Notes: a model not told the origin generated them from the sequence alone. A stretch of DNA of 24,037 nt from Pseudomonadota bacterium (GCA_043767805.1 JAYUGC010000159.1:1-24037), one strand, 5' to 3'. Shown: positions 3,387-21,728, counted from the first letter of the stretch. Program-made: numbers and translations.

Positions 3387-3746
3387 ATGGGGAAAGACAT
3401 GGAAAAATCGAAATCGACAACCGGCACTAAATCGAAGCTCAAGAAAGTCACCATTACGGAGGAGGCTGAGAAGGCACTGGATCGAATGCACAGCTCGATT
3501 AACCAGGGGAACAACGGAGGGAAGGTTAGCAGAATCGATCTACTCTCCTGGGCGATACTTCATTTTGAAAAGAATTCCTTTTCCGAGACCATTGAGGACA
3601 TTCGCCGTGCGCACTTCGACCGCCTCGCCTATCTGGGATCGGTCTATGACCAACTAAAAAAAGCACAACGTGATGGCACTATTGAACCGGACCTCGCGGA
3701 ACTTTTGGCCCCTCTTTCATCTACGACGGTCCGAGAAGGCAATTAG
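3387..3746 (+). CDS. Hypothetical protein, probably ribbon-helix-helix-like DNA-binding (relaxosome accessory or regulator)
   Basis: Strand-helix-helix pattern KKVTIT-EEAEKALDRM...GKVSRIDLLSWAI. Start may be ATG 3399. Confidence 0.6.
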   Translation: MGKDMEKSKSTTGTKSKLKKVTITEEAEKALDRMHSSINQGNNGGKVSRIDLLSWAILHFEKNSFSETIEDIRRAHFDRLAYLGSVYDQLKKAQRDGTIEPDLAELLAPLSSTTVREGN

Positions 3747-3824
3747 GCAGGTACTTTTTTCGCGCTGCTCAAGGCTGCTCCATTGCTATTTCATGTCCTG
3801 TCTCTAAGTAATTCAGGAGCCCCT

Positions 3825-4148
3825 TTGAAAACATTTGAATCTACTTCCGTCCCGGAAAATATCCGGAGTGAAGGCCTTTCCACGCCCCTCGTCTGTACTA
3901 TTACGCAACTCGCCACCACTCTCCAGGTCCCTGTAAAAACGATCTATTACTGGGTTCACCGAAAACAGATTCCCTTCGTCAAAATGGGCCGGCACCTGCG
4001 TTTCAATCCAACGGATGTTCTGGGCGCCTTCGTGGCAAAGACTGCGGGAGAAGGGACTCCTTGCTTCGGGGATCGGCCCATATTAAAAGATCCAGGACGT
4101 AGGTCTTTGAAAATTAGGAACGCAAATCCTGCTCAAACCAAGGAGTAG
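3825..4148 (+). CDS. Excisionase-like helix-turn-helix protein (HTH_17/MerR-like)
   Basis: TITQLATTLQVPVKTIYYWVHRKQIPFVKMGRHLRF is a typical Xis pattern, directly upstream of the integrase. TTG 3825 follows AGGAG (3815-3819); the track start is 3783. Confidence 0.85.
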   Translation: MKTFESTSVPENIRSEGLSTPLVCTITQLATTLQVPVKTIYYWVHRKQIPFVKMGRHLRFNPTDVLGAFVAKTAGEGTPCFGDRPILKDPGRRSLKIRNANPAQTKE

Positions 4149-4151
4149 GAA

Positions 4152-5318
4152 ATGCCAATATACATAAGAGGAAATAGCTTCCAGGTGAAGCTACTGGATG
4201 CGAATGGCTTCTGGATTACGAAGACGTTCCGGTCGAGGCGGGATGCCGAGCTTTTCGAGGCTCGAACCAAAGTGCAAAGGCTTGGTGGAGAATCGGTTCA
4301 GGGCTCAGGCCAACAACCCACGCTCGATACTTATTTCGAACAATGGTTTGAAACCGTAAGACACCAAGCTTCCGACGGATGGCGCAGTACCCAGAAGCAA
4401 CTGTATCAGCACTATGTCTCCCCCTTTCTGGGAGATAAGAGACTGCAGAAAATAACACCGCCTATGGTCTCTCACGTTCTTAACCGCATGAGAGAGAAGG
4501 GCATGTCCGATCAGCTCCAATTACACGTCTATGCGCTTCTGAAGAAGATGATGCGAGACGCGATGGAACTGTTCATGATCCTGCCTCACAATCCAGTGCT
4601 TCGAACGATGCGGCCCAAGGTTCCTACGAAAGAGGCAAGGCATCTTGCCATCGATGAGTTGAAGAAACTGATGACTCATGTGGTGGGGAAGCCTTACGGG
4701 GTCGCGGTTTGGCTCCAGGCCTTCCTGGGCCTTCGGGTAGGAGAACTGCAGGCCCTAACTTGGGGCAATGTGGATCTCAACGAGGGAGTCATTCGAATCT
4801 GCCGGAACTACATCCGGCAGGAAAAGAAGTTCCGCGATTACCCGAAGGGGAGAAAGCAGCATAGCCACAAGGTTCCTCCAGAACTCCTCGCTCTCCTGAA
4901 GAGGGAGAGGGAAGTCTCTAGGAACGAATTTGTGGTTTCTGATCCTGACGGGGCGATCCTTAGATACGAGTCCTACAACCGGGCTCTGGGGGCCTATTGC
5001 GAGGAGCTTAAAATCTCCTTCATCGGGACCCACGGTCTGAGGCACTCGACGGCGGAACTCTACCTAGCGAATGGTGCGACCTCGGATGACCTGAGAAGGT
5101 TGTTCGCGCATTCGTCGTCTCGGGTGACTGAGAGGTACATCCATAACAAGGGAACGCGGTTGGAGGAGATCTCGGGGAGCATGAGGCTCTTTGATAAGTC
5201 GCCACCACCGCACGCTGAACCGACTACTACCGATGATGACCGATTGGAACTTTCCCAAAGTTTCCCAAATAACGCGGTTGCGAAGGTGATTTCGATTCAA
5301 CGAAGGAGGTTAAGTTAA
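4152..5318 (+). CDS. Tyrosine recombinase/integrase
   Basis: Full catalytic set: GLRVGEL (R), PKG (K), HGLRH (HxxR), FAH (H) and TERY (Y). SAM-like core-binding domain present. RBS GGAGTAGGA. Confidence 0.95.
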   Translation: MPIYIRGNSFQVKLLDANGFWITKTFRSRRDAELFEARTKVQRLGGESVQGSGQQPTLDTYFEQWFETVRHQASDGWRSTQKQLYQHYVSPFLGDKRLQKITPPMVSHVLNRMREKGMSDQLQLHVYALLKKMMRDAMELFMILPHNPVLRTMRPKVPTKEARHLAIDELKKLMTHVVGKPYGVAVWLQAFLGLRVGELQALTWGNVDLNEGVIRICRNYIRQEKKFRDYPKGRKQHSHKVPPELLALLKREREVSRNEFVVSDPDGAILRYESYNRALGAYCEELKISFIGTHGLRHSTAELYLANGATSDDLRRLFAHSSSRVTERYIHNKGTRLEEISGSMRLFDKSPPPHAEPTTTDDDRLELSQSFPNNAVAKVISIQRRRLS

Positions 5319-5338
5319 TGAAATAGAAAGAGGAAAAT

Positions 5339-5415
5339 TGGAGCGGGAGACGAGGTTCGAACTCGCTACCCTCAGCTTGGAAGGCTGATGCTCTAGCCAA
5401 ATGAGCTACTCCCGC
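5339..5415 (-). tRNA. tRNA-Gly, anticodon TCC
   Basis: Minus strand GCGGGAGTAGCTCATTTGGCTAGAGCATCAGCCTTCCAAGCTGAGGGTAGCGAGTTCGAACCTCGTCTCCCGCTCCA. Acceptor stem GCGGGAG/CTCCCGC, anticodon loop CTTCCAA, GTTCGAA T-loop, encoded CCA. Confidence 0.97.
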
Positions 5416-5515
5416 ATCCTAGAACAATCGCAAATTTTTGTGGCCCTTAACTTCGACGGGTCCCGCACCAGCCAGGGCTGATGGCACGTTAGATGCGGTC
5501 GCTACGCTCCCTTAG

Positions 5516-5542
5516 GCCAAATGAGCTACTCCCGCATCCTAG
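5516..5542 (-). repeat. Exact 27-bp duplicate of the tRNA-Gly 5' end plus leader
   Basis: GCCAAATGAGCTACTCCCGCATCCTAG occurs at 5396-5422 and 5516-5542, 120 bp apart. Confidence 0.92.
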
Positions 5543-5846
5543 GACAAAAGCCAAGAGACCCGAATACTTAGCATGAGACCCTAAAATCCGTCTACTTAGT
5601 TTTTTTGCCCGCCGAGATGGGGCTGGGGGCCTCCCGGAAATAGCGGGATTACTTAGGCTCTCTCTCGAGCCTTCCTTGAGGACTAATCATTGATCACATC
5701 TTTTTCACCCGCGCTCATGGTGGTTTAGCGCCGTCCATTGACGTTTCAACAATGCGGGAAAGAACAATGACTCCGGAGAATTGTCGCCCCATGTGACGAA
5801 TGATTAGCGCCAGCGAACGCGCCCAAATATCAAACGGAGAGTGCCG

Positions 5847-5882
5847 GGTCAAAGCGGTCAAAGCGGTCAAAGCGGTCAAAGC
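5847..5882. repeat. Tandem repeat (GGTCAAAGC)x4
   Basis: Four exact 9-bp units at 5847, 5856, 5865 and 5874. Confidence 0.95.
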
Positions 5883-5976
5883 AGAGAAAATAATGCCCAT
5901 AATTCCTTGAGCTTGGCTAAAACGTACCAGGTATCGAGATATCTTTTTGTCGGGAGGAACCCTTGGAGCGGTGAGT

Positions 5977-6909
5977 CTATTGAATGGCCTTGTCGCAAAT
6001 CTCCTGGAAGGCCCGCGCGAAAGAGCGCAGCAGGACATCGTCTTTCTTTTGGCCGTGGCACGCGAGCCAAACGCGGTACTTCCAGTAGCCGCCTTTGGGA
6101 CCCAGAACTCGGATGGATTTCTCCCGAATCTCCCGGGCCACGTAGAGCAGAGGCAGAAAGGCCATGCCCACTTCATCGATGACGGAGCGAACTAGCGACG
6201 CCATGACGTCACTCTCAAAGACCACGCGGCCTTTGAGAGAGTTCTCTTCGAAAAAATTATCGATCTCGGCCCGAAGCTTGAATCTGGAAGAAGGCATCAG
6301 CCACTGCGCGTCCTCTCCTCCGACGATCTCTTTAACGGCCGCTCCCGCTTTTAACTTTCCGGTATTAGACCGCGTCACCCAGTTGCTGGAACAGGTCAGT
6401 GCCACGGGAACTTCGGCGCGGGTCAAATTCTCGAGCTCGGGTTCCGTCATGGCGAAAGGCGTGACCACGGCGTCGAGCTCGTGAAAGCGCAAGCGCTCGA
6501 CCAGCTGCACGTGCGTCCCGGAAACGACCGTCACCTTCGGACGCTGCGCCAAACCATGTTTCTTGAGGAACAAGCTGACCACTTCCACTACGAAGGGCCG
6601 ATCCACTTCGTCCGAGACGCCGATGTGAATGCGCCTCGCCGCGGAAGGAATGCGCTTCGAAAGAAGCGCTCCGAGCTCCTCGGATAACTCGAACATCTTC
6701 GTACAAAGCCCATAAACGAGTGAGCCCGTGTCGGTCAGAACGTTGTTTCTCCCCACTCGGCGAAACAGTCTTACGTCGAGAGCCTCCTCCAAAACTTTTA
6801 GCTGGCTGCTCAAGGAAGGCTGGCTGATCTTCAGCCGGTCCGCCGCGAGCTTAACGCCGCCGGACTTCGCCGTAACGTAGAAGTAATACAAGTGGTTGAA
6901 GTTATACAT
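5977..6909 (-). CDS. LysR-family transcriptional regulator, NhaR-like
   Basis: N-terminus NFNHLYYFYVTAKSGGVKLAADRLKISQPSLSSQLKVLE is a LysR HTH of the NhaR subtype; C-terminal substrate-binding domain present. Confidence 0.93.
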   Translation of the reverse strand: MYNFNHLYYFYVTAKSGGVKLAADRLKISQPSLSSQLKVLEEALDVRLFRRVGRNNVLTDTGSLVYGLCTKMFELSEELGALLSKRIPSAARRIHIGVSDEVDRPFVVEVVSLFLKKHGLAQRPKVTVVSGTHVQLVERLRFHELDAVVTPFAMTEPELENLTRAEVPVALTCSSNWVTRSNTGKLKAGAAVKEIVGGEDAQWLMPSSRFKLRAEIDNFFEENSLKGRVVFESDVMASLVRSVIDEVGMAFLPLLYVAREIREKSIRVLGPKGGYWKYRVWLACHGQKKDDVLLRSFARAFQEICDKAIQ

Positions 6910-6960
6910 AGCTATTACCTATATAACACATGATTTTTATATATTTTTATTATGTTACCG
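6901..6960. promoter_or_regulatory. AT-rich divergent promoter region with a dyad, candidate LysR operator
   Basis: GTTATA (6901-6906) and TATAAC (6922-6927) form an inverted repeat overlapping the lysR start, followed by an AT-rich tract. Confidence 0.4.
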
Positions 6961-6994
6961 AACGCGCCAGTATGAATGGGAAGGGACAATAAAA

Positions 6995-7285
6995 ATGAAT
7001 AAAGCCACCAAAGACGCGTATCTGGACAAGATGAGCGCCCAGCTCGGCGAATGGGGCGCCCGCCTCGCCGTCGTCAAAGCCAAGATCGCTCAAGGCTCCG
7101 CCGACGTGCGGATCGATTACCAAAAACAGATTTCGGACTGGCAGAAGAAGGAAGCGAACTTCAAAGCCAAAATGGAAGAATTACGCGCCGCCGGCGCGGA
7201 AGGCTACGAAGCCGTCAAAGCTAGCGCGCATACCGCGTGGACGGAGCTAGCTACCATCGTCGACAAATTTGGAGATAAAAAATAA
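6995..7285 (+). CDS. Small coiled-coil protein (sll1863-like stress-response family)
   Basis: KDAYLDKMSAQLGEWGARL...EELRAAGAEGYEAVKASAHTAW matches the family pattern as I recall it. ATG 6995 after AGGGA; TAATG overlap with the next gene. Confidence 0.75.
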   Translation: MNKATKDAYLDKMSAQLGEWGARLAVVKAKIAQGSADVRIDYQKQISDWQKKEANFKAKMEELRAAGAEGYEAVKASAHTAWTELATIVDKFGDKK

Positions 7286-8652
7286 TGAAAATCAAAAACG
7301 TAATACTGTCTGTCTCGTTCGTGGGTGTTTTACTCGCTGGCTGTAGCCACGGTCCCGTGGTGCAGGATTATGCCACCACGGCTAGTCCCGCCGAGGAGCT
7401 GACGAAGCTCAACCTCGACATGGACCTCGCCGTAAAGAATCAGGTGGATGCCCTTTCACCGACGCATTTCAACGAAGCCAGAGGGGCACAGTCCGACGCC
7501 AAGAACAGCCTGGAAAAACAACGCGACCCGAAAGACACGCTTCACAAAATCGCGGAGAGCCGGGCCTACCTGAACATGGCCACCAAGGCCTCCGAGCTGT
7601 CGCACCAAAACATGGAAGACGTGGTTAGCGCGCGCCTCGCGGCCGTGACCGCAGGAGCACCTGGCTATTTCAAAAGTGATTTTCAGCGCATCGACGGCAA
7701 CCTCAAGGACGTCACCACGGACCTCGAGAAGAACGATACGGCTAGCGCCGCTCAGCGACGGTCCGAGTTTCAGGCGGCTTACCTAGCCATCGAGCTCAGA
7801 GCCATCAAGCACGCCAATCTCGAAGCGGCCCGCAGCGCCGTCACCTTGGCCAAAAAAGAAGGCGCGAGCGAGTATGCTCCCCGAAGCCTGGCCATAGCGG
7901 AGAAGAGTCTCCTGGATACGGAAGCCTTCATCACGGCAAACCGTCACGACGCGGCTAACGTATCCACCCGCTCGGCGCAGTCTTTGGCCTCGGCCAATCA
8001 CGTCCTCAAAATCAACCGCGACTCCAAAGCCGGAAAAAAAGTCTCGTCGGAAGACGCCGCTTTGACTCTCGAGGGCGCGCAGACCCAAGCGACTCAAGCT
8101 CGTTCCCAGCTCGTCGATACAAAAGTGGAGCTCGCGGACTCGCAAGAAGAGCTGAACAGCGAAAAAGGGGCCAACCGAGCCCTTAGCGCGGAAAACAAGA
8201 GCTTGGAGTCCGACCAAACCTTCAACGAAAGCTTCGAGGAAGCCCGCGCCGAGTTCACGAAGGAAGAAGCGGAAGTCTACAAGCAAGGCAACACGCTGAT
8301 GATTCGTCTCAGAGGCCTCGAATTTCCGACGTCTCAGGCCGTCATCAAAGGATCCAACTTCGCTTTGCTTTCAAAATTGAGCAAAGTGATTCAGGGGTTC
8401 GGTAAGAGCAAGGTGATCATCGAAGGACATACCGATTCCGTCGGCGATAAGGACAAGAACGAGAAGCTCTCTTCCGAGCGCGCCGAAGCAGTGAGAGATT
8501 ACCTCGCGTCGAACGGCGTGACGGCAACCGACCTTACGGCCATCGGTTATGGTTACCAAAAGCCTTTGGGCACCAATAAGACCAAGGAAGGCCGGGCGCA
8601 GAATCGCCGGGTGGATGTTCGCATCTCGCCCGCTAAGACCGCGACGCTCTGA
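7285..8652 (+). CDS. OmpA-family lipoprotein with helical N-terminal region
   Basis: Lipobox LLAGC. C-terminal OmpA peptidoglycan-binding motifs IEGHTDSVG, NEKLSSERAEAV and GRAQNRRV. Confidence 0.92.
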   Translation: MKIKNVILSVSFVGVLLAGCSHGPVVQDYATTASPAEELTKLNLDMDLAVKNQVDALSPTHFNEARGAQSDAKNSLEKQRDPKDTLHKIAESRAYLNMATKASELSHQNMEDVVSARLAAVTAGAPGYFKSDFQRIDGNLKDVTTDLEKNDTASAAQRRSEFQAAYLAIELRAIKHANLEAARSAVTLAKKEGASEYAPRSLAIAEKSLLDTEAFITANRHDAANVSTRSAQSLASANHVLKINRDSKAGKKVSSEDAALTLEGAQTQATQARSQLVDTKVELADSQEELNSEKGANRALSAENKSLESDQTFNESFEEARAEFTKEEAEVYKQGNTLMIRLRGLEFPTSQAVIKGSNFALLSKLSKVIQGFGKSKVIIEGHTDSVGDKDKNEKLSSERAEAVRDYLASNGVTATDLTAIGYGYQKPLGTNKTKEGRAQNRRVDVRISPAKTATL

Positions 8653-16693: not shown

Positions 16694-16975
16694 ATGACTC
16701 ACAAAAGAGGGTTACTTCTTGGCGCAGCCCTTACCGGCCTTCTCACCGTCGCGGCTTGCAGCTCGGGCGGCTCGACCACGGACTCCGCGAGTCCCGCGGT
16801 GGACTCTGGCGCGACGGGCGAGTGCCACGGCATCAATAGCTGCAAAGGCACCGGCGATTGCGGCGGCAAAGGCTACTCCTGCGCGGGGAAAAATGCGTGC
16901 AAGGGCCAGGGCTGGCTGAAGCTGAAAAAAGCCGAGTGCGAGAAAAAGGGCGGCAAGTTCAAAGCTGACGCCTAA
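16694..16975 (+). CDS. Cys-rich BufA2-like (bufferin-type) precursor, lipoprotein form
   Basis: CHGINSCKGTGDC...CAGKNACKGQGW...CEKKGG core; lipobox-like TVAAC; RBS AAGGA. Confidence 0.8.
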   Translation: MTHKRGLLLGAALTGLLTVAACSSGGSTTDSASPAVDSGATGECHGINSCKGTGDCGGKGYSCAGKNACKGQGWLKLKKAECEKKGGKFKADA

Positions 16976-18951
16976 TGAGTCTCGCCCCTTATAGAAAGAA
17001 ACGAAAATTCAAGCGCACTCCCGAGCCCAAGGGCAAGAAGAGTGCGAACAAGGGGCCGCTGCGTTTTGTCGTGCAAAAGCATGATGCGACTCGCACCCAT
17101 TATGACTTTCGGATCGAGCTCGATGGGACCTTGAAAAGCTGGGCGGTGCCGAAGACGCCCTCGTTAAATCCGCTCGATCAACGCCTCGCCATCCGAGTCG
17201 AGGATCATCCTTTGGAGTATGGGAAGTTCGAGGGCGTAATTCCCGAAGGCAATTATGGCGCCGGCGCGGTCATCGTCTGGGACCGCGGCACCTATCAGGA
17301 ACGGCATTCGGAAGGCCGGGCTCAATCGGAGAAGGCGTTGCGAGAAGGCCTGCTCAAAGGGAAGGTCACGCTCCTTCTCTCAGGCGAGAAGTTGCAAGGC
17401 GAGTTCGCCCTCATTCGCCTGAAGAAAAAAGGAAAAGAAAAGGGAGACCCGTGGCTACTCATCAAAAAACGCGACGAGCACGCGGTTTACCGGCGGAGCG
17501 AGCCCGACCAGGGCCGCTCGGTGAAGTCCGGCCGGCTGCTCTCGGACTTCAAGCCCATCCCGAAGCCGATCCCTAAAGCCTCTCGCTCCCTCCCCCACCG
17601 CGTGCGCCCGCAAATCGCGGCGTCCGTGCCGGAGCTGCCCACGGGCAAAGACTGGGTCATCGAGCCTCTTTTTGGCGGCACGCGCGCGCTTGCCGAAATA
17701 GAGCCAAGCCGCGTGACTCTGCACTCTTCGCATCTCGTGTCTCTCGATCGAAAGTTCCCGACCCTCCTCGCGGAGCTTCGTAAGTTGAAAGGCCCGCTGC
17801 TTCTCGACGGAGAAATTACCGAGGGCAAAGACGGCCCTACTTATTGGATTTCCGATCTGCTCTACGAGAAGGACAAGGATTTGCGACCGCTCGCTCTCTC
17901 CAAACGCCGCACTCGACTGGAGAAGCTGAAGTTACCGAGCCGAACGCTCTCGCTCGTCTCCTGGAAAGAGCGCCCTCGGACCGCACAGATCATCGCGAAG
18001 TACCTGCCCGCCCCTTATCGCTCCGGCGTTCAGAGCACTTGGCAACGGCAACGCTCGCAGTCGACGTTTCAAGAGCCGCCGCTCACTCACTTGGACAAAC
18101 TTTTTTGGCCGAAAGAAAAGATCACCAAGGGCGACTTGCTCGAATACCACCGGAGAATGGCGCCGTATCTGATCCCGCATTTGAAGGACCGCCCTCTGTC
18201 TTTGCACCGTCATCCCGACGGCATCGAAGGCAAAAGTTTTTTCCATAAGGACATGTCGGGCTATCTGCCTCGCCGTATCCGCACGTTCGCGGTGGAATCC
18301 CGGTCGAGCGAGAAGACGGTGCATTACCTCGTTTGCGACGATCTCTTTTCGCTCCTTTACGTGGGAAACATGGGCTGCATCGAGCTGAACCCGTGGCTCT
18401 CTCGGACGGGTTCCCCCGATAGACCCGATTATCTCGTCATCGATCTCGATCCGGACGGAAATCCGTTCAATGAGGTCGTCCGGGTCGCAAACGAAGTGCA
18501 CCGGGTCCTGGAAAGCATCAAAGTGAAGAGCTTTCCGAAAACTTCAGGCGCGTCGGGCCTGCACATCGGCGTTCCGCTCGGCGCGAAATATTCCTACGAT
18601 GAAGCTAGGGACTTCGCGATCGCTGTGGCGGAAGTGGTCCACGAACGCTTACCGAAACTGACGAGCCTCGAGCGAAGCCCCGCTCGCCGGCGGCGGCTCA
18701 TCTACCTCGATTGTTTTCAAAACCGCAGGAGCCAAACCCTGGCCTGCGCCTACACTCCGCGTCCCATCCCAGGCGCCTCGGTGTCGACGCCGCTCAAATG
18801 GAGCGAGGTCAAGCCAGGCCTCGATCCCAAGGCCTTCACGCTATCGACGATACAAAAGCGGGTGGCTCGCGTGGGGGATCTCTGGAAAGGGGTTCTCGGA
18901 GAAGCGGAGGACCTGCCTAAAGCCTTAGCCCGCCTGAAGAAACAATCGTAG
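16975..18951 (+). CDS. ligD: LigD-like protein: phosphoesterase, degenerate ligase domain, primase-type polymerase
   Basis: PE: FVVQKHDATRTHYDFRIE, SWAVPK, EDHPLEY. POL: RHPDG, IDLDP, KTSGASGLHI, YLDCFQN. The ligase region lacks the motif I lysine (EPLFGG) and the OB domain. Confidence 0.9.
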   Translation: MSLAPYRKKRKFKRTPEPKGKKSANKGPLRFVVQKHDATRTHYDFRIELDGTLKSWAVPKTPSLNPLDQRLAIRVEDHPLEYGKFEGVIPEGNYGAGAVIVWDRGTYQERHSEGRAQSEKALREGLLKGKVTLLLSGEKLQGEFALIRLKKKGKEKGDPWLLIKKRDEHAVYRRSEPDQGRSVKSGRLLSDFKPIPKPIPKASRSLPHRVRPQIAASVPELPTGKDWVIEPLFGGTRALAEIEPSRVTLHSSHLVSLDRKFPTLLAELRKLKGPLLLDGEITEGKDGPTYWISDLLYEKDKDLRPLALSKRRTRLEKLKLPSRTLSLVSWKERPRTAQIIAKYLPAPYRSGVQSTWQRQRSQSTFQEPPLTHLDKLFWPKEKITKGDLLEYHRRMAPYLIPHLKDRPLSLHRHPDGIEGKSFFHKDMSGYLPRRIRTFAVESRSSEKTVHYLVCDDLFSLLYVGNMGCIELNPWLSRTGSPDRPDYLVIDLDPDGNPFNEVVRVANEVHRVLESIKVKSFPKTSGASGLHIGVPLGAKYSYDEARDFAIAVAEVVHERLPKLTSLERSPARRRRLIYLDCFQNRRSQTLACAYTPRPIPGASVSTPLKWSEVKPGLDPKAFTLSTIQKRVARVGDLWKGVLGEAEDLPKALARLKKQS

Positions 18952-19019
18952 AGAAATCTCCACATTGCTCTTCTCAAGCAAGGTCTCTTCCGGCGCCGAA
19001 GGGTGTACTGGAGGGTACC

Positions 19020-19631
19020 ATGGCCAAAGCTCCCGCAAAGAAGGCTACAGTGAAAAAGAGTCCTTTCAAGACCCGTAAGACCCGTTCCGAGGTCTCCAAG
19101 GAATCCGACACGCTGACGCCGCCCTCCGCCATCGCGCAAGCCATCGATTCGTTCCGTGATTGCCAGGAGCAAGCCCGGCACTTCGAAGGCGAAGCGACCA
19201 TCCACAAAAACCAGGTCCTCGACTTCTCCGAAGCCGAGTACGCGAAACGGTTAATTGGCGGCATGGGAAAATCCTTCAAGGTGCTCGGCGAGGAGTCGAT
19301 GGTCACCTATGTGGTGATGGACGCGAGCGCGGGCCTTGCCGACGAAGACGTGGAATCGTTTCGCCAGCGCTGGGGCGACCAAGCCGCGGACGAGCTTATT
19401 CAGCGCGACTTCAACAGCATTCGCTTCGACGGAGACGTGCTCGAAGCCAACTACGATAAAGTCGTGGAAGCCCTCGAAACGCTCCCCGAGGAAATCGTCG
19501 AAACTCTCTTCAAGCCGATGCTCATGAAGGCTCGGCCCGGTGCGGCAGAGACCGCGAAGAAGTACGCGAAAAACGCGAAGGAGCTGCGCGAGCTTCTCAA
19601 GATGCTGAAAATCCGCAACTACATCAAGTAG
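19020..19631 (+). CDS. Hypothetical protein with basic N-terminal tail
   Basis: RBS GGAGG, host-like codon usage, N-terminus MAKAPAKKATVKKSPFKTRKTR; no family firmly recognised. Confidence 0.85.
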   Translation: MAKAPAKKATVKKSPFKTRKTRSEVSKESDTLTPPSAIAQAIDSFRDCQEQARHFEGEATIHKNQVLDFSEAEYAKRLIGGMGKSFKVLGEESMVTYVVMDASAGLADEDVESFRQRWGDQAADELIQRDFNSIRFDGDVLEANYDKVVEALETLPEEIVETLFKPMLMKARPGAAETAKKYAKNAKELRELLKMLKIRNYIK

Positions 19632-19679
19632 CGGATCGTAGGTTGCCGGGCCGGTCCCCCTCCCCTATATTCTCGGCAC

Positions 19680-20285
19680 ATGTTGAGGGACCGCCAGAGC
19701 ATTTTCACACCTAATTTTTTCACCCGACAGGTTTCCGTGGCTCCTTCCCGTTTCATTCGACCCCAACATCCCAAAACGGAAATTCGTCCCGATCCGGCGG
19801 CCATGCGCCGGGTGCTGGATTCCGGCTGGGCGGGACAGCTCAAAGTGCACGGCCACCGCGCGCAAATTCACGTGCCCGCGTCGAGCTCCCAAAAGATTCT
19901 CGTCTTCAACCGCCAAGGAAACCCTCACAAGAAGGCCTTGCCCGCGGCGGCCGCACTCGAGCTACGGCGCCTCTTTCAGCCGGCCAAGGGCTGGAACGTG
20001 GTCGACGGAGAATGGCTCAAAGAAAAAGATCATTTCTTCATATTCGACTTCTTGAAGCAGGACGACCGGCTGCTCTCCGATTTGACCTACTCCGAGCGCC
20101 ATGCGCTGTTGCCACGCGCTTTTTTGTCGCCGCATATCAAGGTACTGCCGCTCTTGAGAGCCCTCGAGGATTGCGTCGGCACCCTCGAGAGGCTTCCCGC
20201 CCACGCGGAAGGCCTGGTGTTTAAGTCCTTGGTCTCGCCGGGTTTCGAAGACACCGCCATCGTGCGCTGCCGCGTCAAACGCTAA
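19680..20285 (+). CDS. Stand-alone ATP-dependent ligase nucleotidyltransferase domain without OB fold
   Basis: Motif I QLKVHGHRAQIH, Ia FNRQG, III VVDGEW, IIIa FFIFDFL, TYSERH, IV EGLVFK; stops just after motif V. Start may be GTG 19737. Confidence 0.82.
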   Translation: MLRDRQSIFTPNFFTRQVSVAPSRFIRPQHPKTEIRPDPAAMRRVLDSGWAGQLKVHGHRAQIHVPASSSQKILVFNRQGNPHKKALPAAAALELRRLFQPAKGWNVVDGEWLKEKDHFFIFDFLKQDDRLLSDLTYSERHALLPRAFLSPHIKVLPLLRALEDCVGTLERLPAHAEGLVFKSLVSPGFEDTAIVRCRVKR

Positions 20286-20317
20286 CTCCTTATCGTCGAT
20301 ATTCCGATAAGGAGGGC

Positions 20318-21139
20318 ATGGCTAGCCCGCGCATCGGAATTTCCGGTTGGACGTTTCCTCCCTGGCGCGGAGACTTTTATCCCAAGGGACTACCCCAGCG
20401 GCAAGAGCTCGAGCACGCGAGCCGCCAGCTCGGTACCATAGAAATCAACGGCACTTTCTACTCGTTACAACGGCCGGCGACGTTTCAAAACTGGCACGAC
20501 TCGGTGCCTGAGTCTTTCAAGTTCGCGGTCAAAGCGCCGCAGTACATGACGCACATCCGTCGGCTTAAGGACATCGAGGAATCTCTCGCCAACTTTCTCG
20601 CGTCCGGACTGCTTTGCCTCGGTAAGAAGCTGGGTCCCATCCTCTGGCAGTTTCCCCCGAACGTAATGCTGAAGGACGATCGCTTCGAGAAGTTTTTGAA
20701 GCTTCTGCCGAAGAACATGACCGAAGCCGCGAAGCTCGCCAAAGAGCACGGCCCAAAAGTCGAAGGCCGCGCCTGGACGAAAGCTTTGCTTAAGGCCCCC
20801 CTTCAGCATGCCTTCGAGTTTCGTCACAAGAGCTTTCAAGACCCCGCCTTCTTGAAGTTGATGAAGGCCCACAACGCGAGCCTCGTGCTTAGCCAGGATC
20901 ATCCGAAGTGGCCTTATCTCGAGCAGCTCACTGCGGATTTCGTCTATGTGCGCTTACACGGCACGGACATGAAGAAAGGCTACTCGCCTAAACAGCTGGG
21001 CGAGCTCGCCGCCAGCACCGAGCGCTGGAGCCGGCAAAGACAGGTCTACGTCGTTTTCGCAAACGACGCGAAAGAAACCTCTCCGAGGAACGCCTTGCAA
21101 CTGCAAGAGCGTCTGCCCCGAGCCGCTAAAGCCGCTTAA
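20318..21139 (+). CDS. DUF72 (YecE-like) TIM-barrel protein
   Basis: IGISGW, IEINGTFYSLQ, FAVKAPQYMTH, LWQFPP, AFEFRH and VYVRLHG motifs; RBS AAGGAGG. Confidence 0.95.
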   Translation: MASPRIGISGWTFPPWRGDFYPKGLPQRQELEHASRQLGTIEINGTFYSLQRPATFQNWHDSVPESFKFAVKAPQYMTHIRRLKDIEESLANFLASGLLCLGKKLGPILWQFPPNVMLKDDRFEKFLKLLPKNMTEAAKLAKEHGPKVEGRAWTKALLKAPLQHAFEFRHKSFQDPAFLKLMKAHNASLVLSQDHPKWPYLEQLTADFVYVRLHGTDMKKGYSPKQLGELAASTERWSRQRQVYVVFANDAKETSPRNALQLQERLPRAAKAA

Positions 21140-21251: not shown

Positions 21252-21728
21252 GTGAGCCGACGTGAATGTCCAAATCGAGATTGTGGGGGAAAGGGTTCGC
21301 TAATAAAGCGAGGCCACTTCATCACGCGAAGTAACGCCCAGCCCGTGCGCCGCTACTATTTTAATAGCTGTAAGAAATCCTCGTCGGCCCGCACGTCTCG
21401 GCGAACGTACCGTCAGAAAAAGCCCCAACTCAATCGCCTGGTGTTTGGGCTCTATGTTTCGGCCCTGAGCCAGAGACGTATCGCGCGGATACTTCGCATC
21501 AACCGTAAAACGGTCGTGAGGAAGTTGCTCTTCCTTGCCTCTCTTTCAAGAGAAGCGTACGAACGATGGCTCAAGGAATTTAAGAGCTCTCGCATGCAGT
21601 TCGACGAAATGGAAACTTTCGAGCACACCAGGCTAAAACCTTTGAGCATCGGCCTTTGCGTTGACGAAGCGACCGCGAAGACCTTAGAGGTTGCGGTCGC
21701 AACATTCATGGTCGACTCCTTGGTTTAA
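21252..21728 (+). pseudogene. Truncated IS1-like transposase remnant
   Basis: Zn-ribbon CPNRDC...RYYFNSC (third Cys lost), HTH SQRRIARILRINRKTVVRK, first catalytic motif QFDEMETF. The frame then ends at the convergent CBS gene with the rest of the DDE domain missing. Confidence 0.75.

What the first reader, a model, noticed from the sequence alone, without database searches (positions are those of the whole stretch)
16975..21139. Candidate split, Ku-less end-joining locus: dead-ligase LigD, unknown basic-tailed protein, stand-alone ligase domain and DUF72
Seen: four co-oriented, closely spaced genes. LigD keeps its PE and POL domains but its ligase domain is inactivated; a separate small gene two positions downstream carries the ligase catalytic motifs LigD lost; no Ku gene is in the window. 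Established: canonical bacterial NHEJ uses Ku plus LigD with an active KxDG adenylation domain and OB fold, and the genes are often clustered. Inference: the functions have been redistributed to end processing (LigD PE/POL), end binding (19020-19631), sealing (19680-20285) and a possible nuclease (DUF72). I do not recognise this architecture as described.
Basis: partly seen in the sequence, partly recalled or inferred. Interest (0 to 1): 0.85.

Follow-up and report, generated by a model that had tools for sequence, protein, structure and literature searches.

The report
Ku-less LigD operon, split ligase
A conserved four-gene DNA-repair operon of Bdellovibrionota keeps the end-cleaning and polymerase parts of the LigD repair enzyme but has a dead internal ligase, and probably hands strand sealing to a tiny separate ligase core that always travels with a protein of unknown fold.

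Summary
Four co-oriented genes (16975-21139, +) encode four proteins. (1) A LigD-like protein has intact PE and POL domains. Its middle nucleotidyltransferase (NTase) domain lacks the motif I lysine, and there is no OB domain. (2) A 203-aa protein has a disordered basic tail, no Pfam family and no fold match found. (3) A 201-aa OB-less ATP-dependent-ligase NTase core keeps the motif I lysine. (4) A DUF72 protein.

The genome (100% complete by markers) shows no Ku, no canonical ATP-dependent ligase and no ligase OB domain. NAD-dependent LigA is present.

LigD-ORF2-ORF3 are adjacent in every related locus where the contig allows (34 loci, three classes of Bdellovibrionota). ORF2 and ORF3 occur in exactly the same 18 of 251 phylum genomes. 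Of 60 genomes with a LigD polymerase, 40 have Ku and 18 have this pair (2 have both).

Distant ORF2 relatives sit beside mini-ligase cores without LigD in a metagenome contig and a 735-kb phage. I therefore read ORF2 as the ligase's partner subunit rather than a proven Ku substitute. The complex prediction gives weak support only.

I found no paper describing this. The scan noted the same module earlier in three other genomes. New variant of a known kind; biochemistry untested.

The parts
16975..18951 (+). LigD-like protein, 658 aa: PE domain, dead NTase remnant, POL (primase-polymerase) domain; no OB domain
   Evidence: Pfam PF13298 2e-41 and PF21686 8e-86. NCBIfam LigD models score below their cut-offs: PRK05972 532 vs 895, TIGR02776 300 vs 373. 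It is 150-200 aa shorter than the canonical LigDs of relatives (808-859 aa).
16975..17544 (+). 3'-phosphoesterase (PE) domain, residues 1-190, active site intact
   Evidence: Aligned to P. aeruginosa LigD PE (2lj6_A, E 3e-52), window H36, H42, D44 and R46 match H42, H48, D50 and R52. These residues are invariant in 8 of 8 module LigDs. The Mn triad His42/His48/Asp50 is taken from a passage of PMC8656161.
17581..18051 (+). Degenerate ligase NTase domain (about 157 aa), without the catalytic lysine, followed by no OB domain
   Evidence: Motif I reads EPLFGGTR. Of 27 module LigDs that keep the domain, 26 lack Lys at the motif I position, and 1 of 28 module LigDs has lost the domain altogether. 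It is homologous to ORF3 (hhalign probability 96.6%, E 7e-10).
18082..18951 (+). POL (AEP primase-polymerase) domain, residues 370-658
   Evidence: PF21686 covers the full profile 1-254. PDB LigD/NHEJ polymerase domains match at E 3e-46 to 2e-29. The D490-L-D492 motif and K522-T-S-G are invariant.
19020..19631 (+). ORF2, 203 aa: disordered basic N-terminal tail with the conserved PFKTRK motif, then an acidic alpha/beta globular domain of no known family. Proposed partner subunit of the ORF3 ligase core.
   Evidence: No Pfam, NCBIfam or PHROG family. 414 homologs, none with a functional name. 135 clusters among 1.84 billion representatives, nearly all full-length ones about 180-290 aa. Model pLDDT 80. 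No PDB match: Foldseek E above 1, VIA best Z 4.4. Always next to ORF3.
19680..20285 (+). ORF3, 201 aa: stand-alone ATP-dependent-ligase NTase core with motifs I, III, IIIa, IV and a variant motif V (RCR); no OB domain or motif VI
   Evidence: PF01068 32.3 bits (cut-off 26.2) and PF09414 30 bits (cut-off 27). Model pLDDT 90. Foldseek gives 117 PDB matches at E <= 1e-3; the 50 best listed are all ATP-dependent DNA ligases or NHEJ assemblies that contain one (best E 9e-10, TMq 0.58-0.70). K55 aligns with the motif I lysine of human LIG1.
20318..21139 (+). DUF72 protein, 273 aa, fourth gene of the module
   Evidence: PF01904 4e-68. Present in 27 of 34 related loci, downstream of ORF3 or, in Oligoflexus, upstream of LigD. 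It is also the last gene of a Lig-Ku-PE/POL-DUF72 operon in a relative.

Best explanation
This is a self-contained, Ku-independent, LigD-type DNA-break repair module. The sealing step has been moved out of LigD to a two-protein ligase.

Shown:
- LigD keeps intact PE (3'-end cleaning) and POL (gap filling) domains.
- Its internal ligase NTase domain has lost the adenylylated lysine, and the OB domain is gone.
- ORF3 is a conserved OB-less NTase core that retains the nucleophile lysine and the nucleotide-binding motifs.
- ORF2 and ORF3 are an inseparable gene pair.

Inferred:
- ORF3 self-adenylylates with ATP and seals the 3'-OH/5'-PO4 nick left after PE and POL have acted.
- ORF2 binds ORF3 and supplies in trans what the missing OB domain normally gives: DNA grip and/or help with adenylylation. 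Its basic tail touches DNA or docks on LigD.
- The dead NTase domain in LigD survives as a scaffold or DNA-binding spacer.
- DUF72 acts as an upstream nuclease or end-processing enzyme.

The substrate is not settled. Both single-strand breaks, gaps or abasic sites and double-strand ends remain possible.
For: Domain content and dead motifs.

PE triad intact and invariant.

ORF3 catalytic motifs are invariant or nearly so in 46 sequences. It has the ligase fold, and K55 aligns with the LIG1 motif I lysine.

Own genome: no Ku, no canonical PF01068 ligase and no PF04679 OB domain.

Gene order LigD-ORF2-ORF3: ORF3 follows ORF2 in 33 of 34 loci; the exception ends inside ORF2. LigD lies upstream in 31 of 34; the three exceptions start at ORF2. 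Only these four gene families are shared by the flanks.

Phylum sample of 251 genomes: ORF2 in 18, ORF3 in the same 18, all 18 with a LigD Prim-Pol. Ku is in 40, all with Prim-Pol. Both are in 2, each of which has two LigDs. So 56 of 60 Prim-Pol genomes carry either Ku or the pair.

Canonical LigDs next to Ku in the same phylum have full NTase and OB domains.

The pair exists without LigD in two places. In metagenome contigs L058/L059, an ORF2 relative overlaps the start of an ORF3 relative (hhalign 99.9%). In the 735-kb phage LR756501, an ORF2 relative lies 190 nt upstream of a 211-aa PF01068 core.

Complex prediction ORF3+ORF2: weak support, ipSAE 0.50 (runs 0.45-0.56), best of 3 controls 0.00. 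The mark was reached by 116 of 157 solved complexes and 2 of 215 mismatches. At 0.60 or under it was reached by only 18 of the 157 solved complexes and by both mismatches. The runs agree in at least 85% of contacts, and the partner pLDDT is at least 81.

Charge complementarity: ORF2 globular part pI 5.0, ORF3 pI 10.3.

Precedent for an accessory fold hypothesised to be given in trans to a ligase core: trypanosome editing ligases with KREPA1/A2 (passage of PMC12936278).
Against: - No biochemistry exists for any of the four proteins.
- In ATP-dependent DNA ligases the OB domain (motif VI) is needed for adenylylation (established knowledge, recalled). ORF2's model is not an OB fold, so how step 1 would work is unexplained.
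- ORF3's motif V is RCR rather than KxK.
- The complex score is only in the weak band.
- One divergent ORF3 relative (L059) has Thr at the motif I lysine position, so not every pair can be a ligase.
- One phage (LR745206, L061) has an ORF2 relative with no adjacent ligase core.
- No fusion of ORF2 with another domain was found (weak evidence).
- Ku and the pair are not statistically exclusive: 2 of 18 pair genomes have Ku, against 38 of 233 others.
- LigA is present and could seal nicks.
Confidence: 0.6

Rival explanations
1. This is true non-homologous end joining in which ORF2 is a functional replacement for Ku (it binds and bridges double-strand ends and recruits LigD), with ORF3 simply the ligase. 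It overlaps with the best explanation and differs only in the role given to ORF2 and in the substrate.
For: Among 60 phylum genomes with a LigD Prim-Pol, 40 have Ku and 18 have ORF2/ORF3, so the pair occupies the genomic place of Ku. The operon of a relative reads Lig(NTase+OB)-Ku-PE/POL-DUF72. That parallels PE/dead-Lig/POL-ORF2-ORF3-DUF72, so [ORF2+ORF3] stands where [Ku+Lig] stands. ORF2 has a basic, disordered tail.
Against: ORF2 has no Ku profile match, and no Ku structure is among its fold matches (inconclusive). Its globular domain is acidic. Its relatives pair with mini-ligase cores in contexts with no PE/POL. Two genomes keep both Ku-LigD and the module, which argues against simple replacement.
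Confidence: 0.2
2. This is a short-patch excision or single-strand-break repair module rather than end joining. DUF72 incises or cleans at a lesion, PE removes 3' blocks or ribonucleotides, POL fills the gap, and ORF3/ORF2 seals. It would be analogous to the Ku-independent Prim-PolC/LigC excision repair of mycobacteria (recalled, not read here). This concerns the substrate and is compatible with the split-ligase mechanism.
For: No Ku in the genome. DUF72 is linked to the module in 27 of 34 loci even where the gene order differs. DUF72 (Tm1631) was computationally predicted to be an endonuclease IV-like DNA-lesion enzyme (PMC3828134, abstract).
Against: The DUF72 function is a prediction only. 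DUF72 is widespread (97 of 251 genomes, 3 copies in this genome) and also accompanies a Ku-containing operon. LigA is available for ordinary nick sealing.
Confidence: 0.35
3. ORF3/ORF2 is not a DNA ligase. It is either an RNA ligase or RNA-repair pair, or a nucleotidyltransferase with another target, and is only loosely coupled to LigD.
For: ORF3 also matches the Rnl2-type family PF09414 (30 bits vs cut-off 27), and its motif I KxHG resembles Rnl2-type ligases (recalled). The pair occurs in phage-like contexts without LigD. One relative lacks the motif I lysine.
Against: The fold matches listed are DNA ligases, and the best profile matches are DNA ligase I. There is strict adjacency to a DNA-repair LigD in 18 of 18 genomes. 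Canonical LigD ligase domains also hit PF09414, so that hit is not specific.
Confidence: 0.1
4. This is a decaying remnant. The module is a degenerate NHEJ locus with no ligase function of its own, LigA seals, and ORF2/ORF3 are passengers.
For: The ligase domain is dead, the OB domain is lost, and one lineage has deleted the middle domain entirely (L015/L035). LigA is present.
Against: All four genes are intact and conserved across three classes. ORF2 shows 52-70% identity and ORF3 46-57%. The catalytic motifs of PE, POL and ORF3 are invariant. No stops lie inside any match.
Confidence: 0.05

Closest known systems
Bacterial LigD of the PE-LIG-POL type (P. aeruginosa class; NCBIfam PRK05972, TIGR02776), with Ku
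   Same: Same PE and POL domains in the same order, with active-site residues kept. The middle domain is a recognisable homolog of the LigD ligase NTase domain. The same phylum also has canonical Ku-LigD operons.
   Different: The motif I lysine is absent and the OB domain is absent. The scores fall below the NCBIfam cut-offs. There is no Ku in the genome. Instead there are two extra conserved genes, ORF2 and ORF3.
Split ('nonconventional') NHEJ operons with stand-alone ligase (LigC-like NTase+OB), Ku and PE/POL proteins
   Same: The ligase is encoded separately from PE/POL. A relative has Lig-Ku-PE/POL-DUF72, ending in DUF72 like this module. The categories are described in PMC7719229 (passages).
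   Different: There the separate ligase has its OB domain and Ku is present. Here the ligase is a 201-aa NTase core without OB, paired with a protein of unknown family, and LigD still carries a dead NTase domain.
Minimal ATP-dependent DNA ligases and NTase-superfamily ligases whose accessory domain is hypothesised to be supplied in trans (trypanosome editing ligases REL1/REL2 with KREPA2/KREPA1)
   Same: A catalytic NTase core lacking an OB domain, bound to a separate partner hypothesised to give the substrate-binding fold in trans (passage of PMC12936278).
   Different: Those are RNA ligases of a eukaryotic editing complex, and the partner has an OB fold. ORF2's model is not an OB fold and matches no solved structure. 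The interaction here is only predicted, and weakly.
Mycobacterial Ku-independent Prim-PolC/LigC excision-repair pair
   Same: An AEP polymerase plus an ATP-dependent ligase working without Ku.
   Different: LigC has NTase+OB. That system has no PE domain fused, no ORF2-like partner and no dead ligase domain.

Membership tests
Bacterial LigD (PE-LIG-POL) | 3'-phosphoesterase domain with the Mn-binding His/His/Asp triad | tested here: met
   PF13298 2e-41. H36, H42 and D44 align with P. aeruginosa H42, H48 and D50 and are invariant in 8 of 8 sequences.
Bacterial LigD (PE-LIG-POL) | AEP primase-polymerase domain | tested here: met
   PF21686 8e-86, full length. TIGR02778 scores 237.6 against a cut-off of 214.7.
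Bacterial LigD (PE-LIG-POL) | Ligase NTase domain with the motif I KxDG lysine | tested here: not met
   PF01068 scores 15.3 bits against a cut-off of 26.2. Motif I reads EPLFGGTR. 26 of 27 relatives that keep the domain lack the lysine.
Bacterial LigD (PE-LIG-POL) | OB domain (PF04679) after the NTase domain | tested here: not met
   No PF04679 hit. Zero residues align to the OB region of canonical LigDs.
Bacterial LigD (PE-LIG-POL) | Score over the curated whole-protein cut-off of the NCBIfam LigD models | tested here: not met
   PRK05972 532 vs 895; TIGR02776 300 vs 373; PRK09632 350 vs 989.
Canonical bacterial NHEJ (Ku + LigD) | A Ku gene (PF02735) in the genome | tested here: not met
   Zero matches and zero candidates in G000, which is 100% complete by markers in 204 contigs. 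The control rang in B. subtilis. 16 of 18 module genomes also lack Ku.
ATP-dependent DNA ligase NTase domain (PF01068), for ORF3 | Profile score over the cut-off, and NTase motifs I (K), III, IIIa and IV | tested here: met
   32.3 bits vs 26.2. In 46 sequences K55, G58, H59, R60, E111, F122, D123, E177 and G178 are invariant, and H57 and D109 are nearly invariant (90% or more).
ATP-dependent DNA ligase NTase domain (PF01068), for ORF3 | Motif V with two lysines (KxK) | tested here: inconclusive
   The family has an invariant R196-C197-R198 in its place. Charge is kept, but function is untested.
ATP-dependent DNA ligase (complete enzyme), for ORF3 | OB domain with motif VI in the same polypeptide | tested here: not met
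   The protein ends 3 residues after motif V. There is no PF04679 in the protein or anywhere in the genome.
ATP-dependent DNA ligase fold, for ORF3 | Predicted structure matches solved ligase adenylation domains | tested here: met
   Model pLDDT 90. Foldseek gives 117 matches at E <= 1e-3, and the 50 best listed are all ATP-dependent DNA ligases or NHEJ assemblies that contain one.
Covalent ligase activity (enzyme-AMP formation, nick sealing), for ORF3 | Biochemical activity | not testable with these tools
   Needs purified protein.
Rnl2-like RNA ligase (PF09414), for ORF3 | Profile score over the cut-off, and the family's C-terminal domain | tested here: inconclusive
   30 bits vs 27, but canonical LigD ligase domains hit the same profile. 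No C-terminal domain is present.
Ku (PF02735), for ORF2 | Ku beta-barrel profile or fold | tested here: inconclusive
   No Ku profile hit at E <= 0.1. No Ku chain is among the listed fold matches, which does not exclude the fold.
DUF72 (PF01904), for the fourth gene | Profile score over the cut-off across the full profile | tested here: met
   230 bits vs 25.3, profile positions 1-217.

The most novel reading that the evidence does not exclude
ORF2 founds a new class of ligase subunit. It has a previously unseen fold that binds an OB-less ATP-dependent ligase core and replaces, in trans, the OB domain (and possibly also Ku's recruiting role). The result is a heterodimeric DNA ligase used both by a Ku-less LigD repair operon of Bdellovibrionota and by huge phages.
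Probability: 0.35. Interest if true: 0.85.

Novelty: new variant of a known kind. Interest (0 to 1): 0.72.

Why it matters
Bacterial LigD systems are the model for minimal end joining and are used as genome-editing helpers. Every characterised version uses an NTase+OB ligase, and for end joining also Ku.

A widespread natural version differs in three ways: LigD keeps a dead ligase domain, sealing is done by a 200-aa core, and a new partner protein is always present. If confirmed, this would show that the OB domain is not indispensable in cis. It would also define a new protein family with a testable function, and give a very small two-gene ligase for biochemistry and tools. It would further explain part of the 'LigD only' genomes that surveys file as incomplete NHEJ (PMC7719229). 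A cultured carrier, Oligoflexus tunisiensis Shr3, makes genetics possible.

Tried and rejected
**ORF2 searches that found nothing**
- Fold search of the ORF2 model against PDB: Foldseek found no match at E <= 1e-3, and VIA wide gave a best Z of 4.4, below the noise level stated by the tool. No fold assignment was possible.
- BFVD: the best hits are two uncharacterised phage proteins of about 210 aa, at E 4e-3 and 2e-2 with TM 0.33. A lead only.
- ESM Atlas by features: the nearest clusters are viral hypothetical proteins (score 0.94), but recognition is below the tool's mark. A lead only.
- ORF2 and ORF3 themselves found nothing in the phage collection by tblastn. ORF2's close-relative patterns found nothing in viral contigs.
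- Divergent members P0325, P0311 and P0326 found nothing in viral contigs. P0330, P0326 and P0311 found nothing in 'phages'. Only P0299 did.
- Search for longer, fused forms of ORF2: none found (weak evidence by the tool's own note).
- PADLOC: only a sub-significant SIR2 stretch for ORF2 (6.7e-4, 16.6 bits). I did not take this as a defence system.

**Other blanks**
- Promoter and terminator scan: counts are at chance level, and no + strand terminator lies between the four genes. Not used as evidence.
- Sequencing runs: no RNA holder is listed. There are four DNA runs of one sediment study, one of which may be the source.

**Readings dropped**
- I first read the roughly 17-aa deletion between motifs III and IIIa, shared by ORF3 and the dead domain, as a sign of recent duplication. 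Oligoflexia dead domains keep that segment, so I dropped this.
- Ku versus pair exclusion: 2 of 18 pair genomes have Ku against 38 of 233 others, which is no clear anticorrelation. I do not claim that the pair replaces Ku on this ground.

**Literature**
- Searches for a description of this architecture found none. Subscription journals and supplements were not covered.
- DUF72 searches gave only the Tm1631 computational papers.

Full report
**What is in the window**

They are separated by 68, 48 and 32 nt. The start of the first overlaps the stop of a small upstream ORF (TAATG).

Pfam and NCBIfam give the following for the first protein:
- A LigD 3'-phosphoesterase domain (2e-41).
- A full LigD primase-polymerase domain (8e-86).
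- Between them, only a sub-threshold stretch of the ligase NTase family (15.3 bits against a cut-off of 26.2).
- No OB domain.
- Every whole-protein LigD model scores below its curated cut-off.

The second protein matches nothing. The third passes the cut-offs of PF01068 (32.3 bits) and PF09414 (30 bits). The fourth is a full-length DUF72 (4e-68).

**The dead ligase domain**

As a natural reference I took canonical LigDs from Ku-bearing genomes of the same phylum. These are 808-859 aa and have PE, NTase (up to 1e-39), OB (about 1e-28 to 1e-31) and POL domains.

In an alignment their motif I reads E[IT]K[WFY]DGYR. The window has EPLFGGTR. Motif IV has lost its EG, motif V reads WQRQ, and the sequence ends before the OB domain.

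Across the window plus 27 full-length relatives:
- 26 lack a lysine at the motif I position.
- One (L029) keeps KLDGLR.
- One (L035) has deleted the whole domain.
- None has an OB domain.

The remnant still keeps the motif I Gly and Arg, LDGE of motif III, and the DLL...R segment. It has been retained from Bdellovibrionia to Oligoflexia. I read this as a structural role, but that is an inference.

PE is intact. H36, H42, D44 and R46 align with P. aeruginosa H42, H48, D50 and R52. The first three are the Mn triad according to a passage of PMC8656161. They are invariant in 8 of 8 sequences. POL keeps its DxD and KTSG motifs; their catalytic meaning is recalled, not tested.

**ORF3**

The family (46 sequences) keeps these residues invariant: K55, G58, H59, R60, E111, F122, D123, E177, G178, R196, C197 and R198. 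A profile search against PDB aligns GQLKIHGHRAQIH with the motif I segment YKYDGQRAQIH of human DNA ligase I. The model (pLDDT 90) gives 117 Foldseek matches at E <= 1e-3. The 50 best listed are all ATP-dependent DNA ligases or NHEJ assemblies that contain one (best E 9e-10, TMq 0.58-0.70).

The protein ends three residues after motif V, so it is an NTase core only. It is homologous to the dead domain of LigD (hhalign 96.6%, E 7e-10, 23% identity) but not strikingly close to it.

**ORF2**

It has 414 homologs, none with a functional name. A profile search of 1.84 billion representatives gives 135 clusters, and nearly all full-length ones are about 180-290 aa. It has no Pfam, NCBIfam or PHROG family.

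The model (pLDDT 80) has a disordered tail (residues 1-26) followed by a helical hairpin and a mixed alpha/beta domain. Neither Foldseek (E above 1) nor the full VIA scan (best Z 4.4) finds a solved relative.

The tail is basic (pI 10.5) and carries an almost invariant PFKTRK motif. The globular part is acidic (pI 5.0), while ORF3 is basic (pI 10.3). ORF2 is the best conserved of the four genes: 52-70% identity against 46-57% for ORF3 and 39-57% for LigD.

**The genome**

The assembly is 100% complete by markers, in 204 contigs. I found:
- No Ku, with no candidate at all.
- No PF01068 match at the genome-level threshold.
- No ligase OB domain.
- One NAD-dependent LigA.

**Conservation**

ORF3 is found in 10 of 40 relatives. 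In nine fetched loci the order LigD-ORF2-ORF3 is the same.

A scan of one genome per species found 34 loci. All are named Bdellovibrionota or are unclassified MAGs. They include Bdellovibrionia, Bacteriovoracia and Oligoflexia, with the cultured Oligoflexus tunisiensis Shr3 among them. Nine of these loci are the same places as the fetched ones.

In these 34 loci:
- ORF3 follows ORF2 in 33; the exception ends inside ORF2.
- LigD lies just upstream in 31; three contigs start at ORF2, and in L027 LigD is divergent.
- DUF72 is present in 27: usually right after ORF3, displaced by 0.9-3.7 kb in three, and upstream of LigD in three Oligoflexus loci.
- Of the 7 loci without DUF72, at least 2 are cut by contig ends.

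A clustering of all flanking ORFs finds no fifth conserved family. The module is therefore self-contained and sits in varying contexts.

**Phylum tally (251 genomes, the same sample each time)**

| Feature | Genomes |
|---|---|
| ORF2 | 18 |
| ORF3 | the same 18 |
| LigD Prim-Pol | 60 |
| Ku | 40 |
| DUF72 | 97 |

All 18 pair genomes and all 40 Ku genomes have a Prim-Pol. Two genomes (G003, G098) have both Ku and the pair. Each of these has two LigDs: a long one by Ku and a short one by ORF2. Four genomes have a Prim-Pol with neither.

So a LigD polymerase in this phylum comes with Ku or with the pair in 56 of 60 genomes. The pair and Ku are not significantly exclusive, however: 2 of 18 pair genomes have Ku against 38 of 233 others. 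The coexistence suggests that the two systems are not simply redundant.

**What ORF2 is tied to**

- *Metagenome contig.* A divergent ORF2 relative (P0326) lies in metagenome contigs L058/L059. It sits directly before, and overlaps, a 177-aa ORF3 relative (hhalign 99.9%, 36% identity). No LigD lies in the 3.4-3.9 kb held, and the neighbours look phage-like. In that copy the motif I lysine is a threonine.
- *735-kb phage.* Another divergent member (P0299) matches three distinct huge uncultured phage genomes; a fourth record, LR756503, gives the same match at the same coordinates. In LR756501 (735 kb) the ORF2 relative (hhalign to the family 80%, E 1.4e-5) is followed after 190 nt by a 211-aa PF01068 core (32.3 bits). 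That core has a KFNG motif I and ends after motif V.
- *634-kb phage.* In LR745206 the ORF2 relative has no adjacent ligase.

The claim is therefore partly confirmed. It moves ORF2 from 'Ku-like end binder' towards 'partner of the OB-less ligase core'.

The complex prediction of ORF3 with ORF2 gives weak support:
- ipSAE 0.50 (runs 0.45, 0.50, 0.56), with the best of 3 controls at 0.00.
- The mark was reached by 116 of 157 solved complexes and 2 of 215 mismatches.
- At 0.60 or under it was reached by only 18 of the 157 solved complexes and by both mismatches.
- The runs agree in at least 85% of contacts, and the partner pLDDT is at least 81.

**DUF72**

It is common in the phylum, and this genome has three copies, so presence alone means little.

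The linkage survives a change of gene order in Oligoflexus. In a relative with a split Ku system the operon reads Lig(NTase+OB)-Ku-PE/POL-DUF72 (L063). Two canonical Ku-LigD loci have no DUF72 nearby.

The only functional proposal I found is computational: an endonuclease IV-like enzyme acting on DNA lesions (PMC3828134, abstract).

**Mechanism proposed**

Shown: the domain content, the dead and live motifs, the co-occurrence, and the absence of Ku and of any OB domain.

Inferred:
1. DUF72 and PE prepare the ends.
2. POL fills the gap.
3. ORF3, held and helped by ORF2, adenylylates itself and seals.
4. The dead NTase domain and the ORF2 tail tether the ligase pair to LigD or to DNA.

The substrate remains open: nick, gap or abasic site on one hand, double-strand ends on the other. 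The main gap in the model is how an NTase core without motif VI would adenylylate. The hypothesised in-trans supply of an OB fold to trypanosome editing ligases is a partial precedent (passage of PMC12936278).

**Novelty**

Surveys file Ku-less LigD genomes as 'LigD only' or incomplete NHEJ (PMC7719229, passages). My three literature searches found no description of the ORF2 family, of an OB-less ligase paired with it, or of a LigD with a conserved dead ligase domain. Subscription journals and supplements were not covered.

The scan itself has noted the same module in three other genomes. I rate it a new variant of a known kind, with a protein family of unknown fold at its centre. All functional statements await biochemistry.

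Noticed in passing
L063 (G119:C86:91000-101000), 3733-7884, - strand: A Bdellovibrionota relative has a fully split Ku-type operon: stand-alone ligase (NTase+OB, 353 aa), Ku (285 aa), a PE-POL protein with no ligase domain (503 aa) and DUF72 (248 aa). All are contiguous on one strand.
   Followed up: partly
L029:5538-6002 (LigD middle domain): This is the only module LigD of the 27 that keep the middle domain which retains a canonical-looking motif I (KLDGLR). Its other motifs are degenerate (FDGDIL, KKHIAK, WLIVE) and the OB domain is absent.
   Followed up: no
L015:9717-11639 / L035 (same place, G017): This LigD has lost the whole dead NTase domain and has gained a C-terminal extension of about 90 aa. 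ORF2 lies 1.7 kb away, and no DUF72 lies in the 14 kb held. The dead domain is therefore dispensable in at least one lineage.
   Followed up: no
L059:2840-3373 (also L058:769-1302): The ORF3 relative paired with a divergent ORF2 in a phage-like metagenome contig has Thr where the motif I lysine should be (TTVGKR instead of KIHGHR). It may be a second, independent case of a dead NTase core.
   Followed up: partly
L060 (LR756501.1:438987-449583): In the 735-kb uncultured phage, the ORF2-like/mini-ligase pair lies directly after an ADP-ribosylglycohydrolase gene (PF03747, 6e-35).
   Followed up: no
L061 (LR745206.1:516974-527570): The ORF2-like gene of a 634-kb phage has no adjacent ligase core. 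It is followed by a weak AAA-ATPase match, an RNase H-like protein and a bifunctional-nuclease/UVR-motif protein.
   Followed up: no
window 16694-16975 (+): A 93-aa Gly/Cys-rich ORF with a lipoprotein-like N-terminus has a stop that overlaps the LigD start (TAATG). It has no Pfam family and no tblastn match in any related locus, so the coupling is local to this genome.
   Followed up: partly
window 21252-21728 (+): A 158-aa ORF has a Cys-rich N-terminus and weak HTH-like hits (sigma-70 region 4 at E 0.07). A 42%-identical copy lies about 3 kb downstream of the DUF72 gene of the module in L032 (12193-12648). It may be a small mobile-element or regulator gene.
   Followed up: no
G000:C36:51140-51772 and G000:C125:16603-17364: The genome has two further DUF72 paralogs outside the module (8e-56 and 3e-33).
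   Followed up: no
G003 and G098 (handles): Two genomes carry both a canonical Ku-LigD locus (LigD open frames of 870 and 792 aa) and the ORF2/ORF3 module (709 and 715 aa).
   Followed up: partly
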